Shown here one piece after another: positions 5,226-26,715 of a DNA stretch of 64,000 nucleotides. The stretch spans positions 1 to 64,000 of the IMG/VR virus record IMGVR_UViG_3300032038_000044. The stretch is one strand, 5' to 3'. How positions within the stretch are numbered: the first letter of the stretch is position 1; each line of letters opens with the position of its first letter. The notes below the pieces were generated by a model. The model saw only the letters and a list, made by a program, of their open reading frames with translations, did not search any database and had not been told where the DNA came from. The DNA is from a virus. Taxonomy: Duplodnaviria > Caudoviricetes. The translations under genes were made by a program, and so were the position numbers.

Positions 5226-5786
5226 TCCCCGGTATGGGAATCGAACCCATCTGATTTCTCGCGTGACTTAAATCATAAATTCAGTAAAACCTTTTCAGCT
5301 AAAAAATCACTTGCTTTTCTTTGATTGCTATTTCTAACTTCTTTTAGCCAAAATTTTGTTTCTTGTGTATCAAATACTGGAAAGATATAATACTGACCAT
5401 TATACTCTGTCATAAAATAATCAGTATCTTCTTTTGTATATTTTTGATGCTCGATACGCTGAGATTTTTCAACGTTTCTAACATCATACTTAGTTCTTAC
5501 TACAAAACTTTCACCCCCGTTTTGAGGGGTAGCGTGTTTTACTTGAATACGAGTAAACTTTCCATCCTTCTCAATAACTAAGTCATACTTTTGATAATTT
5601 CCGATTGGTAATAATACATTAAAACCATTTTCAATTAAATATAGTTGACATTTATATTCAGTTATTAATCCGACTTGAGAAGGGTTTAATATTACATCTG
5701 TCATATAAACTCCTTTCTCTGAAAAGATTTTACTACTTACTCTTCAAGACAGGCGAGCGTCCAACGCCATGTAGACCTACCGGAGA
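5226..5786 (-). tRNA. Split tRNA-Asp(GUC): 5' exon ~5748-5786, 3' exon ~5226-5264, 483-nt insert in the anticodon
   Basis: Joined halves give acceptor CTCCGGT/ACCGGGG, anticodon stem CTCGC/GCGAG and the canonical Asp loop CT-GTC-AC; GTC is duplicated at the insert ends. Confidence 0.88.
5273..5704 (-). CDS. PD-(D/E)XK endonuclease (group I intron-associated/I-Ssp6803I-like family) inside tRNA-Asp
   Basis: YDLVIE...RIQVK catalytic pattern; own SD GAAAGGAG. Confidence 0.85.
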   Translation of the reverse strand: MTDVILNPSQVGLITEYKCQLYLIENGFNVLLPIGNYQKYDLVIEKDGKFTRIQVKHATPQNGGESFVVRTKYDVRNVEKSQRIEHQKYTKEDTDYFMTEYNGQYYIFPVFDTQETKFWLKEVRNSNQRKASDFLAEKVLLNL

Positions 5787-5789
5787 TAT

Positions 5790-6015
5790 TAATGGGTAGA
5801 GGTGCACTCTCTACCGTAGTTCCTTTGTCCTCACCTGCCTCTTTCATCAGATGGAAACACACAGCGGATTTTTTATCCTTCATTTATCCTATGTACGATT
5901 CTCAGCATTCTTTGGTCTCTGAGGAACTACACTCTAAAGCCTATTGCCTTAAAGCCTTCATGAAGTAGTCAACTTCATTCCTTATACGTGCGATTGGTTG
6001 ACAAGACCTCGCACA
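5790..6015 (-). ncRNA. Unassigned structured small RNA (family A/B, copy A)
   Basis: Long-range helix GTAGTTCCT/AGGAACTAC, hairpin GGTAGAG/CTCTACC, motifs shared with 1825-2003. Confidence 0.55.
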
Positions 6016-6020
6016 TACAG

Positions 6021-6091
6021 AGCTTCCAGACGGACTCGAACCGCCATACCTTGATTACAGGTCAAGAGTACTACCATTGTACGATGGAAGC
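6021..6091 (-). tRNA. tRNA-Thr(UGU)
   Basis: Stem CTTGA/TCAAG, loop CC-TGT-AA. Confidence 0.92.
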
Positions 6092-6096
6092 ATAAG

Positions 6097-6984
6097 TCGG
6101 AGAGCAGGGATTTGAACCCTGAACCTCTGGCATCAGTAAACAATGTTATTATATATTCTTCCATTCCTCCTCTGTATATTTTTGAATTTCAGTTTTCTTT
6201 CTTGGAAGATTTTCTGCGTCACACCATTTTCTTATAGTGTTATCAGTAACATTGTAATGAGAACCGATAGATATAAAAGATTGCTCTCTTATCATCTTTT
6301 TTAATTCTTCTCTTGTTGGTCTTTCTACGGTGCGTGAAGATTTTTTACAACACTCTTGGCATAAATTTGTTTTAGTCTGTCCATATAATTTTTTACCACA
6401 ATTACTACAGAAAAATTCTTTAATAATTTTATTTTCTTTTCTTTCAAGGAAATCTTTTTTTGAAAGAACCAATTCTTCATTAAAAGAAATTCTTTTTTCT
6501 ATTTCATAATCTTGTGCTTTATTATATGTTACACCTTTATTCAATGGTGGTGTTAATCTCAATGTTTTACTTGTTGAACATTCGTCAACTGGTATCAAAT
6601 ATACTTTATCTTTCCAACAAGTTGCGAAATAATCGACTTGCTCATTATTATAACTATGTCTTACAGTACCTTTCGTATTTGTTGTTGTGCAAATACAAGA
6701 AAATTGAAAAGCATCTGCATCATAGACACCATTTTTATAAACCATACTTGCTGTTTTACATTGAATTTTTAACAATTCACCATTTACATCTGCTATAAAA
6801 TCGTATTTAGCACCATTTCCATATGGGATAGATACTTCATATCCCATTTCAATAAATTTTGCTATGCAAAGCAATTCTGTTACGTTGCCTGTGGATTGTG
6901 TATAAACCATTTTTCATCTTTTAGAAGAATATAATAATTTGTTTACCAAAGCCAGCCGTCTAGCCAAATTGACAATACACTCCG
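6097..6984 (-). tRNA. Split tRNA-Pro(UGG): 5' exon 6946-6984, 3' exon 6097-6133, 812-nt insert in the anticodon loop
   Basis: Joined halves give acceptor CGGAGTG/CTCTCCG (C1-G72, A73), stem CTGGC/GCCAG and loop TT-TGG-AT; insert ends pair (GTAAACAA/TTGTTTAC plus ~13 further bp). Confidence 0.9.
6149..6910 (-). CDS. PD-(D/E)XK endonuclease with C-terminal zinc ribbon and HTH, inside tRNA-Pro
   Basis: YDFIAD...KIQCK motif; CSNC...CQEC; HTH-like tail (SFISIGSHYNVTDNTIRKWC). Confidence 0.85.
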   Translation of the reverse strand: MVYTQSTGNVTELLCIAKFIEMGYEVSIPYGNGAKYDFIADVNGELLKIQCKTASMVYKNGVYDADAFQFSCICTTTNTKGTVRHSYNNEQVDYFATCWKDKVYLIPVDECSTSKTLRLTPPLNKGVTYNKAQDYEIEKRISFNEELVLSKKDFLERKENKIIKEFFCSNCGKKLYGQTKTNLCQECCKKSSRTVERPTREELKKMIREQSFISIGSHYNVTDNTIRKWCDAENLPRKKTEIQKYTEEEWKNI

Positions 6985-7061
6985 ATTTGTTTTTTCTTTA
7001 TTTCTTTTGTTTATATAAATATTATAACAAAAATTTTTTTTAATTTCAATTTTTATTATAG

Positions 7062-7134
7062 GGTGAAGGGAGAGACTTGAACTCACAACTGGTGGACTCA
7101 CAACCCACTGCTCTACCATTGAGCTACCAACACC
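7062..7134 (-). tRNA. tRNA-His(GUG) with encoded G-1
   Basis: Loop TT-GTG-AG; G-1:C73. Confidence 0.88.
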
Positions 7135-24823: not shown

Positions 24824-25088
24824 AATTATTCTCCTTTTTTCTATTCCGTTCCCGCATAACAAGTGGAAATATTACTAAATCAACGCAGTCGGCGTTATGA
24901 AACCAACATAAATAGCCTTTCTCCAAATTAACAGCGTTATAAGCTTCACAAAAACAAAAATCACCAATTTCACTTAATTTTTTTGATATATCAATTAAAT
25001 TTGTTTTCATATAGTAAGCACCATTAAACATAAAACCTTGTCCTTGTTTAAGGTCGCCAAATTTAACTTCTTTATTTTTATACTCCAT
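24804..25088 (-). CDS. Hypothetical protein (paralogue of 25091-25327)
   Basis: V.FGDL..G..F motif. Confidence 0.65.
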   Translation of the reverse strand: MEYKNKEVKFGDLKQGQGFMFNGAYYMKTNLIDISKKLSEIGDFCFCEAYNAVNLEKGYLCWFHNADCVDLVIFPLVMRERNRKKENNYVNKKN

Positions 25089-25090
25089 AT

Positions 25091-25327
25091 CTATTCCTCT
25101 ACCACGACCGTGCAATCCACCATAGTAACTCTGTCATCAGCACAAAGATAACACAATGACTTATTTAAAAATGAAAATGCTGCATAAGTCTCTTTATTTG
25201 GTTCTGCTACCTTTAAGAATAAGCCTTCATCTTCATCATCTATAAAAAACATACACCCTACTGCTAGACTTCCAAAATTTGTCTGTTTATTTTTCTTTCT
25301 ATTATCTACTACTGTAACCATAATCAA
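25091..25327 (-). CDS. Hypothetical protein
   Basis: NFGSL.VG..F motif. Confidence 0.65.
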   Translation of the reverse strand: MIMVTVVDNRKKNKQTNFGSLAVGCMFFIDDEDEGLFLKVAEPNKETYAAFSFLNKSLCYLCADDRVTMVDCTVVVEE

Positions 25328-25339
25328 TCTCTCCTACTA

Positions 25340-25525
25340 TTAAAAAATAGAATCTTGTAATTTAAGAATGTATTTATCACCATCAGAATCAGCCTTATCT
25401 AAATAAAGACCTAAATCTTCATGTTGAAAAGTATGTGGATTAACAAAATCATACTTAATCTCTATTTCTTTATTATAATTATTTGTATCACTAATTATAC
25501 GCTGAGCTAATTCAATCGCTTTCAT
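25340..25525 (-). CDS. Hypothetical protein
   Basis: SD AAGGAG before MKAIELA. Confidence 0.65.
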   Translation of the reverse strand: MKAIELAQRIISDTNNYNKEIEIKYDFVNPHTFQHEDLGLYLDKADSDGDKYILKLQDSIF

Positions 25526-25701
25526 GTTTCTCCTTCTACATACTGTGAATAAGGGCATACCTTGTAATTCCAGCCACAACAAGCCAATGCCCTGAACTCT
25601 TCTTCAGTTAAATCCTCATTATCTCCGCATTGTTCCACACATTGTTCACCTATTAAATATCTGCAATTTTTTCTAATAGTTTCTTTTTTTAGTATGGTCA
25701 T
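25522..25701 (-). CDS. Small Cys-rich protein (59 aa; not in ORF track)
   Basis: C...C...C...CC...C pattern; SD AAGGAG; ATGA overlap. Confidence 0.6.
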   Translation of the reverse strand: MTILKKETIRKNCRYLIGEQCVEQCGDNEDLTEEEFRALACCGWNYKVCPYSQYVEGET

Positions 25702-25797
25702 AATTTATCACTCCTTTTTTTCTCTCTTATATATAAATTATATCAAATTTTTTTCAATAAATCAAAAAAAGACCTATCACCAAGATAGGTCTTATCA

Positions 25798-26715
25798 TTA
25801 TTCTCCTAATATAATATTCTTTGCTAACTTCATTGTAGTTGAACCACAAAACTTACCAAAATTTGGTATCATGGCTACAATTTCTGGCTCTTCCTTTAGA
25901 CAGTCATTGTAAAGTCTGTGCGGAAGGTCCCTAGCCACGATTGACATATCCTCAGGCGTCAATTCCGCAGGATAAACACCCTCGTCAATAGCCTTGCGAA
26001 TATTCTTTTCTACTCTTACTCTTGTTACAATAGTCTCAGTGAGCTTCTGAAGTCTTTCCTTTTCCGCCAATGCCTCAAGGTCAATTACCTTAGTCTTCAT
26101 AGTCTCCTTAAAGTCATCGTTGACAATCTTTAGGTATTTAGGCAGACGAATATTACCATCATTAAGCTTTGTCTGATTCTTAACAACGATACCCTCCTGT
26201 CTATCACCGTACATTGGTGAGTTCATGAAAGTCATACAATGCTCCCAAGAGATGAACTGACCTTCATAAAGCACATGAATATACTCAAGACCTGCCTTAT
26301 GTGCAAAAATCTTGACTGACTTCTGCGGAAGCCACTCTTCCTTCATTGTATCATAAATGTCATAGACATACCATCTCTTATAGAACTCCTTGTTGTAAAC
26401 AATCTTGTTCTTGTTACCCCACTCACCAAACACAATAAAGTTAGGATGCTTCTTAAACATATGTACTGCTGGCTCTGGTAATGTCATGATGAAATCATAG
26501 AATCCACCTAAGGTATTAGAAGGGTTAAGGTCCTGCTTTCTACTGCAAGCATGCATAGCCCCCGCTTCCGCATCCCAATAAGCTGATGCGTTAGAACCAT
26601 CCCACTTCTCTGTAATCTGGATTTCATCACCCACTTCAAAAGCACCGGTATTAGTCTTAACTAAACCGTTATCTCCTGACATTCTAATATGTTCAATATC
26701 AATAAAATGCTTCAT
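25798..26715 (-). CDS. ATP-dependent RNA ligase, Rnl2-like
   Basis: Motif I TEKWDGSNAS, FGEW, YVYDI, EGIVVK, KIV; helical C-terminal domain. Confidence 0.8.
   Translation of the reverse strand: MKHFIDIEHIRMSGDNGLVKTNTGAFEVGDEIQITEKWDGSNASAYWDAEAGAMHACSRKQDLNPSNTLGGFYDFIMTLPEPAVHMFKKHPNFIVFGEWGNKNKIVYNKEFYKRWYVYDIYDTMKEEWLPQKSVKIFAHKAGLEYIHVLYEGQFISWEHCMTFMNSPMYGDRQEGIVVKNQTKLNDGNIRLPKYLKIVNDDFKETMKTKVIDLEALAEKERLQKLTETIVTRVRVEKNIRKAIDEGVYPAELTPEDMSIVARDLPHRLYNDCLKEEPEIVAMIPNFGKFCGSTTMKLAKNIILGE

What the first reader, a model, noticed from the sequence alone, without database searches (positions are those of the whole stretch)
5226..26715. Candidate system: mobile tRNA anticodon introns spliced by phage-encoded RNA-repair enzymes
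Seen: the same genome carries two ribozyme-less tRNA introns plus an Rnl1-like ligase (13790-14869), an Rnl2-like ligase (25798-26715), a calcineurin-like phosphoesterase (22220-23035), a Thg1-like protein (15159-15938; the tRNA-His already encodes G-1, so a repair role is plausible) and a YqeY-domain protein. Established: T4 Pnkp/Rnl1 heal and seal anticodon-loop breaks made by anticodon nucleases such as PrrC. Inference: homing nucleases may have hijacked this repair pathway, so that cleavage at the exon/helix junctions (host RNase or phage enzyme) followed by ligation gives eukaryote/archaea-style protein-dependent tRNA splicing in a bacteriophage. The cleaving enzyme cannot be identified from sequence.
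Basis: inference. Interest (0 to 1): 0.85.

Follow-up and report, generated by a model that had tools for sequence, protein, structure and literature searches.

The report
Ribozyme-less endonuclease inserts splitting phage tRNAs
Two tRNA genes of a cattle-rumen phage are each split just after the anticodon by a mobile gene for a DNA-cutting enzyme with no self-splicing RNA; these inserts belong to a large phage family, but the phage's RNA-repair genes show no specific link to them.

Summary
tRNA-Asp(GUC) and tRNA-Pro(UGG) are split between nucleotides 36 and 37 by 483-nt and 812-nt inserts. Each insert is almost entirely one ORF of the I-Ssp6803I (PDDEXK_5) homing-endonuclease family, and no ribozyme is detectable. 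The Rnl1-like, Rnl2-type, Thg1-like, YqeY and metallophosphoesterase genes are real.

What I added:
- The same kind of insert sits at 36|37 in at least 17 other viral contigs, one metagenome contig and the cultured Enterococcus phage EFP01. It occurs in five tRNA species: Asp, Pro, Asn, Met and Ser.
- In all 19 inserts the last three nucleotides pair with the anticodon, and a long terminal helix follows. G·U pairs and covariation place this constraint at the RNA level.
- Insert-free alleles exist in near-identical phages.

The proposed repair-enzyme "system" is not supported as a specific link:
- Rnl1 occurs in 1 of 17 insert-bearing contigs.
- The ligase class varies (Rnl2-type, RtcB, Rnl1, or none found).
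- Insert-free relatives carry ligases about as often.
- No EndA, RNase III or kinase was found.

Whether the inserts are spliced out is open. I put protein-dependent splicing at about 45%, an unspliced selfish insert at about 40%, and a cryptic ribozyme at about 5%.

This scan has already noted the same insert family on other DNA (117 notes, at least 104 genomes).

The parts
6946..6984 (-). tRNA-Pro(UGG) exon 1 (positions 1-36)
   Evidence: Junction scan with ARAGORN. In-silico spliced sequence is called tRNA-Pro. Insert-free relative L057 has the loop TTTGGAT.
6134..6945 (-). 812-nt insert in tRNA-Pro at 36|37 (boundary ambiguous by 1 nt)
   Evidence: The insert-free allele in L057/L058 joins 6946 to about 6134.
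6149..6910 (-). 253-aa homing endonuclease: PDDEXK_5 nuclease domain plus a C-terminal Cys-rich/DNA-binding extension
   Evidence: PF11645, E 3.4e-25. Homologue at 56% identity in the same position in L003.
6097..6133 (-). tRNA-Pro exon 2 (positions 37-73)
6922..6950 (-). Pro insert, 5' arm of the terminal helix (anticodon plus insert 5' end; approximate)
   Evidence: MFE fold (z -5.2). Register table with covariation.
6132..6164 (-). Pro insert, 3' arm of the terminal helix, ending CTG opposite anticodon UGG (approximate)
5748..5785 (-). tRNA-Asp(GUC) exon 1
   Evidence: ARAGORN with introns allowed. DNA contig in run X1 joins 5748 directly to 5264 (table 8, record 2).
5265..5747 (-). 483-nt insert in tRNA-Asp at 36|37 (boundary ambiguous by 3 nt because GTC is repeated)
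   Evidence: Insert-free alleles in L057/L058.
5273..5704 (-). 143-aa homing endonuclease of the I-Ssp6803I family
   Evidence: PF11645, E 3e-19. PDB 2OST by profile, 8e-13. AlphaFold model pLDDT 85; best Foldseek match 2OST, TM 0.72. E16, D41, Q54 and K56 are invariant in 6 homologues.
5225..5264 (-). tRNA-Asp exon 2
5719..5752 (-). Asp insert, 5' arm of the roughly 30-bp terminal helix (approximate)
   Evidence: MFE fold (z -6.9, 0 of 100 shuffles as stable)..
5263..5301 (-). Asp insert, 3' arm of the terminal helix; overlaps the ORF's last codons and stop (approximate)
13790..14869 (-). Rnl1-like RNA ligase
   Evidence: PF09511, 7.6e-16. T4 Rnl1 structure 2C5U, 2.6e-6.
15159..16016 (-). Thg1-like protein (3'-5' nucleotidyltransferase family)
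   Evidence: PF04446, 3.4e-31. 4KGK, 1.7e-55.
16842..17270 (-). YqeY-domain protein
   Evidence: PF09424, 4.3e-16.
22220..23035 (-). Metallophosphoesterase
   Evidence: phrog_1649, 4.3e-35. No Pfam match at E<=0.01.
25798..26715 (-). PF09414 nucleotidyltransferase (Rnl2-type RNA ligase family)
   Evidence: PF09414, 2.1e-23. No solved relative by sequence.

Best explanation
The two split tRNAs carry members of a large family of mobile inserts of tailed phages. Shown: each insert is an I-Ssp6803I-type homing-endonuclease gene placed exactly between tRNA nucleotides 36 and 37. It has no ribozyme. Its 3'-terminal three nucleotides pair with the anticodon. Its two ends then form a long helix that continues the anticodon stem, so the ORF sits as a giant loop on a tRNA body that can still fold. 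Inferred from the family, not assayed here: the endonuclease spreads the insert by cutting insert-free tRNA genes. Inferred and unproven: I think the insert is most likely removed from the precursor RNA by two cuts placed symmetrically at the 3' sides of the 3-bp anticodon:insert helix (36|+1 and -1|37). A structure-reading nuclease would make these cuts. It would be either present in any host or brought by the insert itself. The halves would then be joined by whatever RNA ligase is at hand; in this phage Rnl1 is the obvious candidate. The Rnl1-like, Rnl2-type, Thg1-like, YqeY and phosphoesterase genes are best read as an ordinary tRNA-repair kit of large phages. They are not a dedicated, co-inherited splicing system.
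For: Family and site: the same architecture occurs in Asp, Pro, Met, Asn and Ser tRNAs of other phages. Of 18 in-silico 36|37 splices, 17 give canonical tRNAs. The 19th insert, in L057 tRNA-Ser, rebuilds the loop CTTGAAA.
RNA-level structure: among 18 inserts, 36:-3 is Watson-Crick in 18 of 18, with 3 pair types. +1:-4 is Watson-Crick in 18 of 18, with 4 pair types. 34:-1 is paired in 18 of 18, 8 of them G.U. Overall 86% of positions pair in register, against 39-49% when the register is shifted. The Ser insert ends in TCA opposite anticodon UGA. Both precursors fold much better than shuffles, keeping the acceptor stem, T arm and anticodon stem.
Mobility: insert-free alleles exist at 99% identity and in L057/L058. 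About 29 sister phages of EFP01 have an uninterrupted tRNA-Asn.
The tRNA seems to matter: the split genes are the only Asp and Pro tRNAs in this array. The split gene is also the only Asp tRNA found in the 18-38 kb scanned around the insert in four other genomes. For L016 versus L025, endonuclease dS is 0.41 while the exons, 72% identical, differ in the stems by compensatory changes.
The repair genes are not specific to carriers.
A precedent exists for helix-triggered excision of a mobile element from RNA with RTCB ligation: SOS splicing (PMC12779559).
Against: There is no RNA evidence. No bacterial or phage enzyme is known that would make these two cuts. A 3-nt stagger does not fit RNase III, which leaves 2 nt (from established knowledge). 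No EndA was found in the window's contig or in 27 other records, and no RNase III or AAA_33 kinase in the window's contig. Carriers have ligases of opposite chemistry, or none detected. One carrier, L017, from a complete genome, has decayed exons but an intact ORF and helix. Presence/absence polymorphism among near-identical phages, with EFP01 alone among about 30 sisters, suits a costly selfish element that keeps re-invading intact genes. The helix could instead serve endonuclease expression.
Confidence: 0.45

Rival explanations
1. Unspliced selfish insert. The endonuclease gene simply disrupts a dispensable phage tRNA gene and persists by homing. Exons look intact because each carrier allele was recently converted from a functional insert-free allele. 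The terminal helix keeps the tRNA body folded, so the endonuclease mRNA is processed and stabilised like an RNA in a tRNA scaffold, or is released by RNase III.
For: Insert-free alleles sit beside carriers at 97-99% identity. A close relative has a different set of invaded tRNAs: Ser but not Asp or Pro. L017 has decayed exons with an intact ORF and helix. No splicing nuclease was found. Ligases are not associated with carriers. Most cultured relatives of the enzyme are free-standing genes next to intact tRNAs, so the family does not depend on splicing.
Against: This rival does not predict that the last three insert nucleotides track the anticodon across five tRNA species, or that the boundary is fixed at 36|37. 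The split genes are the sole Asp and Pro tRNAs here and in several relatives. Of 18 carriers, 17 keep a perfect cloverleaf although insert lineages have diverged to 60-70% nucleotide identity.
Confidence: 0.4
2. One reading: a nuclease leaves 2',3'-cyclic phosphate and 5'-OH ends, and this phage's own phosphoesterase plus Rnl1/Rnl2 heal and seal them. The repair genes and the inserts would form one co-adapted unit.
For: All named genes are present on the same strand within 20 kb of the tRNA array. Among the nine carrier genomes at least 85% complete (G002-G005, G009, G013, G014, G016, EFP01), six hold a ligase match above cut-off and two more a weak one; G003 has none.
Against: Rnl1 is in 1 of 17 carriers. 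Some carriers have only RtcB. No polynucleotide kinase was found in this contig, though it is only 61% complete. Ligases are as frequent in insert-free relatives: 5 of 7 genomes at least 85% complete, against 6 of 9 carriers. EFP01 gained the insert within a lineage whose ~29 listed sisters have an uninterrupted tRNA-Asn at 92-99% locus identity, so a dedicated system need not have come with the insert.
Confidence: 0.1
3. Cryptic self-splicing: an unrecognised small ribozyme in the insert ends, or overlapping the ORF, removes the insert.
For: The related enzyme I-Ssp6803I lives in a self-splicing group I intron of a tRNA (established knowledge; PMC3384342, PMC3984707). The two splice sites face each other across one helix.
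Against: No Rfam ribozyme match even at E<=10, and none in 18 related loci. Less than about 70 nt is non-coding. The two ORF classes share only about 30% identity, which leaves no room for a shared RNA core. The 5' exon ends in C, G, U or A and the insert ends in C, G, T or A, so the group I rule (U before the site, G at the end) fails.
Confidence: 0.05

Closest known systems
Group I intron of the Synechocystis PCC 6803 tRNA-fMet gene encoding I-Ssp6803I (PDB 2OST)
   Same: Same endonuclease family: PF11645, profile match to 2OST at 8e-13, fold TM 0.72. Same kind of target, a tRNA anticodon loop. One relative here (L029) also sits in a CAU-anticodon tRNA.
   Different: No group I ribozyme core, no U/omega-G splice-site rule, and a simple terminal helix instead. 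The carriers are phages, not cyanobacteria.
Archaeal bulge-helix-bulge introns, some carrying homing-endonuclease genes, cut by EndA and sealed by RtcB
   Same: A ribozyme-less mobile insert in a stable-RNA gene. The anticodon pairs with insert sequence. There are two symmetric candidate cut sites.
   Different: The insert sits at 36|37, not 37|38. There are no 3-nt bulges separated by 4 bp. Instead a 3-bp central helix would be cut at both 3' edges. No EndA homologue was found in the window's contig or in 27 other records. The hosts are bacteria.
'Enigmatic' tRNA introns of Lak megaphages (bioRxiv 10.1101/356790)
   Same: Phage tRNA genes with non-ribozyme inserts of unknown removal mechanism. 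A 'tRNA inside a tRNA intron' also turns up here, in L031.
   Different: The Lak introns described are short and are not reported to encode endonucleases. No anticodon-pairing rule was described.
T4 Pnkp/Rnl1 repair of PrrC-cut tRNA-Lys
   Same: An Rnl1-like ligase is present, and a break in the anticodon loop would be the substrate.
   Different: No Pnkp-type kinase was found. The phosphoesterase belongs to another family. The cut positions differ: PrrC cuts 5' of the wobble nucleotide. The repair genes do not co-occur specifically with the inserts.
SOS splicing of DNA transposons from animal mRNAs (PMC12779559)
   Same: Base-pairing of a mobile element's two ends marks it for excision from host RNA, and an RNA ligase (RTCB) seals the product.
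   Different: It occurs in animals and in mRNAs, with the factors AKAP17A and CAAP1. It is a conceptual parallel only.
Free-standing tRNA-cluster homing endonucleases (T4 SegB; PDDEXK_5 genes in phages My1, SM5, Navo, BCP12, HSTV-4)
   Same: Same enzyme family or niche: phage tRNA gene clusters.
   Different: Those genes lie between intact tRNA genes. Here the gene lies inside the anticodon loop.

Membership tests
I-Ssp6803I / PDDEXK_5 homing endonucleases | Sequence match to PF11645 above the curated cut-off | tested here: met
   69.9 and 89.1 bits against a 26.1-bit cut-off.
I-Ssp6803I / PDDEXK_5 homing endonucleases | PD-(D/E)XK fold closest to I-Ssp6803I, with conserved E...D...QxK catalytic positions | tested here: met
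   Foldseek best match 2OST, E 5e-9, TM 0.72. E16, D41, Q54 and K56 are invariant. The identity of the I-Ssp6803I catalytic residues is from my memory.
I-Ssp6803I / PDDEXK_5 homing endonucleases | Cleaves the insert-free tRNA gene and drives homing | not testable with these tools
   Indirect only: precise presence/absence alleles.
Group I intron | Conserved ribozyme core (P3-P9) | tested here: not met
   No RF00028 or other ribozyme match. About 45-50 nt lie outside the ORFs.
Group I intron | U at the 5' exon end paired to a guide sequence; G as the last intron nucleotide | tested here: not met
   The 5' exons end in C, G, U or A, and the inserts end in C, G, T or A.
Archaeal/eukaryal protein-spliced tRNA intron (BHB) | Two 3-nt bulges separated by a 4-bp helix | tested here: not met
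   The register table shows a near-continuous helix with a 3-bp anticodon:insert segment between the two sites.
Archaeal/eukaryal protein-spliced tRNA intron (BHB) | EndA/Sen-type splicing endonuclease available | tested here: not met
   PF01974 absent from the window's contig and from 27 other phage records. The host genomes are unknown.
Archaeal/eukaryal protein-spliced tRNA intron (BHB) | Anticodon paired with intron sequence | tested here: met
   Among 18 inserts: 34:-1 paired in 18, 35:-2 in 13, 36:-3 in 18. The Ser insert pairs at all 3 positions.
T4-type tRNA repair pathway (Pnkp + Rnl1) | Rnl1 ligase | tested here: met
   PF09511. T4 Rnl1 structures.
T4-type tRNA repair pathway (Pnkp + Rnl1) | Polynucleotide 5'-kinase / 3'-phosphatase partner | tested here: inconclusive
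   No AAA_33 kinase in the 89-kb contig, which is 61% complete. A metallophosphoesterase of another family is present.
Co-adapted insert + repair 'system' | Repair genes co-occur with inserts more than with insert-free relatives | tested here: not met
   Ligase above cut-off in 11 of 17 carriers against 5 of 9 non-carriers. Rnl1 in 1 of 17. Thg1 in 7 of 17, probably one clade.

The most novel reading that the evidence does not exclude
Phages of bacteria have a protein-dependent tRNA splicing pathway of their own. A mobile endonuclease gene hides in the anticodon loop, and its RNA ends pair with the anticodon to build a two-fold symmetric helix. A dimeric nuclease cuts that helix at 36|+1 and -1|37, leaving the anticodon as a 3-nt 3' overhang, and a ligase reseals it. 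The boldest form is that the insert's own PD-(D/E)XK enzyme makes the RNA cuts. The helix copies one half of its DNA target. I also recall, but could not verify, that I-Ssp6803I leaves 3-nt 3' overhangs.
Probability: 0.4. Interest if true: 0.9.

Novelty: new variant of a known kind. Interest (0 to 1): 0.68.

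Why it matters
Bacteria and their viruses are thought to remove introns only with ribozymes (group I and group II). A widespread phage insert that lacks a ribozyme, yet keeps a precise RNA architecture that masks the anticodon, points one of two ways. Either there is an undescribed cut-and-rejoin pathway for tRNA in the bacterial world, or there is a gene drive that silences phage tRNAs. Either outcome bears on why phages carry tRNA arrays and RNA ligases. 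The cultured phage EFP01 makes the question directly testable.

Tried and rejected
- No RNA holder was listed for the stretch, so expression and splicing could not be examined. The four runs laid were DNA contigs.
- Megablast of the region against GenBank phages gave no match.
- The exact spliced Pro junction was not found in metagenome or viral contigs. An insert-free Pro allele was then found through the Asp junction hits.
- An ARAGORN scan for short ORF-less inserts gave mostly chimeric false positives. Only L031 was credible.
- Target-site duplication (the repeated GTC) was rejected. Pro, Met, Asn and Ser inserts end in the complement of the anticodon, not in a copy of it.
- RNase III was considered and rejected as the precise cutter: 3-nt stagger against its 2-nt stagger.
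- RNase P/Z were considered and rejected: there is no T-arm mimic, and a 36:-3 pair would shift RNase P cleavage.
- BHB/EndA was rejected: wrong geometry and no enzyme.
- The paper with I-Ssp6803I's cleavage pattern (PMC1864971) is not held, so the 3-nt overhang remains a recollection.
- Exon-versus-insert identity could not separate vertical co-descent from repeated homing.

Full report
**What is there.** The window is the first 64 kb of an 89-kb IMG/VR viral contig, rated 61% complete by CheckV. It comes from ruminant gut samples; the best DNA holders are bovine and sheep gut metagenomes. A minus-strand array holds 24 ARAGORN tRNAs, 2 more found only by Rfam, and a ROOL RNA.

Two further tRNAs are split. 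Joining 6984..6946 to 6133..6097 gives a 76-nt tRNA with C1-G72 and A73, called tRNA-Pro(UGG).

Each insert is almost entirely one ORF of Pfam PDDEXK_5. The short ORF matches I-Ssp6803I by profile (2OST, 8e-13). Its predicted fold, pLDDT 85, also matches 2OST best (TM 0.72). Four candidate catalytic positions are invariant in six homologues.

Rfam finds no ribozyme even at E<=10. The phosphoesterase is supported by PHROGs only.

**The inserts are a family with a fixed rule.** Searches with the two endonucleases retrieved the same architecture in at least 17 other viral contigs. It also occurs in a metagenome contig closely related to this phage (L057) and in the cultured Enterococcus phage EFP01. 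No group I match occurs in 18 of these loci.

Placing every boundary between nucleotides 36 and 37 gives tRNA-Asp (9 cases), Pro (7), Met-CAU (1), Asn (1) and Ser-UGA (1). ARAGORN recognises 17 of the 18 in-silico spliced sequences tested.

In that register:
- Nucleotide 36 forms a Watson-Crick pair with insert nucleotide -3 in 18 of 18 inserts (C:G, G:C, U:A).
- +1 pairs with -4 in 18 of 18, with four pair types.
- Nucleotide 34 pairs with -1 in 18 of 18, eight of them G.U.
- Nucleotide 35 pairs with -2 in 13 of 18.
- Overall 86% of positions are paired, against 39-49% when the register is slid.

The Ser insert ends in TCA opposite anticodon UGA, and the Met insert ends in ATG opposite CAU. 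So the insert's last three nucleotides are a codon-like match to the anticodon. They are not a target-site duplication; the repeated GTC in Asp is a coincidence of a near-palindromic triplet.

The many G.U pairs place the constraint on the sense-strand RNA. The helix then runs on for about 20-30 bp. In doing so it uses the ORF's last codons (z -6.9 and -5.2). The acceptor stem, T arm and anticodon stem still form in the predicted folds.

The two implied cut sites, 36|+1 and -1|37, lie at the two 3' edges of the 3-bp anticodon:insert helix. This is a two-fold symmetric arrangement.

**The inserts are mobile.** A 2.1-kb DNA contig from run X1, 99% identical to the window, joins 5748 directly to 5264 and lacks exactly the 483 nt. 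Contigs L057 and L058, 81-97% identical to the window, have uninterrupted Asp and Pro genes. The Pro loop there is TTTGGAT, which fixes the mature sequence. L057 instead carries a related insert in tRNA-Ser. About 29 sister phages of EFP01 have an intact tRNA-Asn at 92-99% identity.

Many carrier phages recode TAG. In most cultured phages the same enzyme family is a free-standing gene beside intact tRNAs.

**The 'system' claim.**
- Among 17 other carrier contigs, Rnl1 is present in 1. PF09414 is above cut-off in 9 of 17, with weak matches in 4 more. RtcB is in 2. G003 (86% complete) has none.
- EFP01 has only RtcB.
- Among genomes at least 85% complete, 6 of 9 carriers have a ligase above cut-off, against 5 of 7 non-carriers.
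- Thg1-like genes occur in 7 of 17 carriers, probably one clade, and 1 of 9 non-carriers. They are missing from five carrier genomes rated at least 90% complete, and from EFP01.
- EndA is absent from the window's contig and from 27 other records. RNase III and an AAA_33 kinase are absent from this contig.

RtcB and Rnl-type ligases need opposite end chemistries, so no single scheme built on the phage's own ligase fits all carriers. EFP01 acquired its insert within a lineage of near-identical phages. Anything needed for splicing must therefore already be in the host or phage, or come with the insert. I read the repair genes as a general tRNA-repair kit, not a partner of the inserts.

**Spliced or not?**

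For splicing:
- The anticodon-matched, fixed geometry holds across five tRNA species.
- The split genes are the only Asp and Pro tRNAs here. The split gene is also the only Asp tRNA in the 18-38 kb scanned around the insert in four other genomes.
- Cloverleafs are intact in 17 of 18 carriers, although insert lineages have diverged to 60-70% nucleotide identity.
- For L016 versus L025, endonuclease dS is 0.41, while the exons differ in the stems by compensatory changes.
- Precedents exist: archaeal endonuclease-bearing BHB introns (established knowledge; PMC3984707 cites the literature) and helix-triggered SOS splicing with RTCB (PMC12779559).

Against splicing:
- There are no RNA data, and no known enzyme fits the cuts.
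- L017 has decayed exons but an intact ORF and helix.
- The polymorphism pattern is what a costly gene drive that re-invades intact alleles would give.
- The helix could simply scaffold the endonuclease mRNA.

I cannot separate these readings by computation.

**Prior knowledge.** I found no paper describing endonuclease-bearing, ribozyme-less tRNA inserts in phages. Lak megaphage 'enigmatic' tRNA introns are the nearest report (10.1101/356790). This scan has already noted the same family many times: 117 notes in at least 104 genomes. One of those was later priced at 14/100 for protein joining, on grounds I could not see.

Noticed in passing
L031:676-821: tRNA-Glu(UUC) with a 71-nt insert at 36|37. 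The insert is itself a tRNA-like cloverleaf (Rfam tRNA at 710-777, 41 bits). It resembles the 'tRNA inside a tRNA intron' reported for Lak megaphages. RNase P/Z cuts would not give a 7-nt loop.
   Followed up: partly
L057:1676-2226 (minus strand): A close relative of the window phage has uninterrupted Asp and Pro tRNAs, but a 462-nt PDDEXK_5 insert in tRNA-Ser(UGA). The window's Ser(UGA) gene (7239-7327) is intact.
   Followed up: yes
L017:1380-2000 (G004, complete 143-kb genome): The Asp exons flanking the insert appear decayed: mismatches in the acceptor and D stems, and ARAGORN fails on the spliced sequence. The endonuclease ORF and terminal helix are intact.
   Followed up: partly
window 3818-3897 (-): An 80-nt tRNA found only by Rfam (42.8 bits), with an oversized anticodon arm or loop. 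Its identity is unclear.
   Followed up: no
window 5790-6015 (-) and 5100-5220 (-): GC-richer, apparently structured non-coding stretches flank the split tRNA-Asp. They are retained in the insert-free contig of run X1, so they are not part of the mobile insert.
   Followed up: no
window 1017-1606 (-): ROOL RNA (261 bits) at the end of the tRNA array. ROOL also lies next to the insert-bearing arrays in L025 and L028.
   Followed up: no
L019, L024, L028, L029, L033, L035, L036: In-frame TAG codons at conserved positions of the endonuclease ORFs. tRNA(CUA) genes lie in the fetched flanks of L024 and L029, and of the carrier loci L017, L032 and L034. These phages read TAG as an amino acid, probably Gln.
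   Followed up: partly
L035:1369-2300 and L036:1369-2350: The long (Pro-type) endonuclease is a free-standing gene about 40 nt downstream of an intact tRNA-Pro. These two contigs had no detectable RNA ligase.
   Followed up: partly
window 7061-7133 (-): tRNA-His has two U.U mismatches in its acceptor stem, besides the encoded G-1 and C73.
   Followed up: no
window 4666-4890 (-): A small 74-aa ORF with weak HNH and zinc-ribbon matches lies between tRNA-Asn and the split tRNA-Asp. It may be another free-standing nuclease remnant.
   Followed up: no
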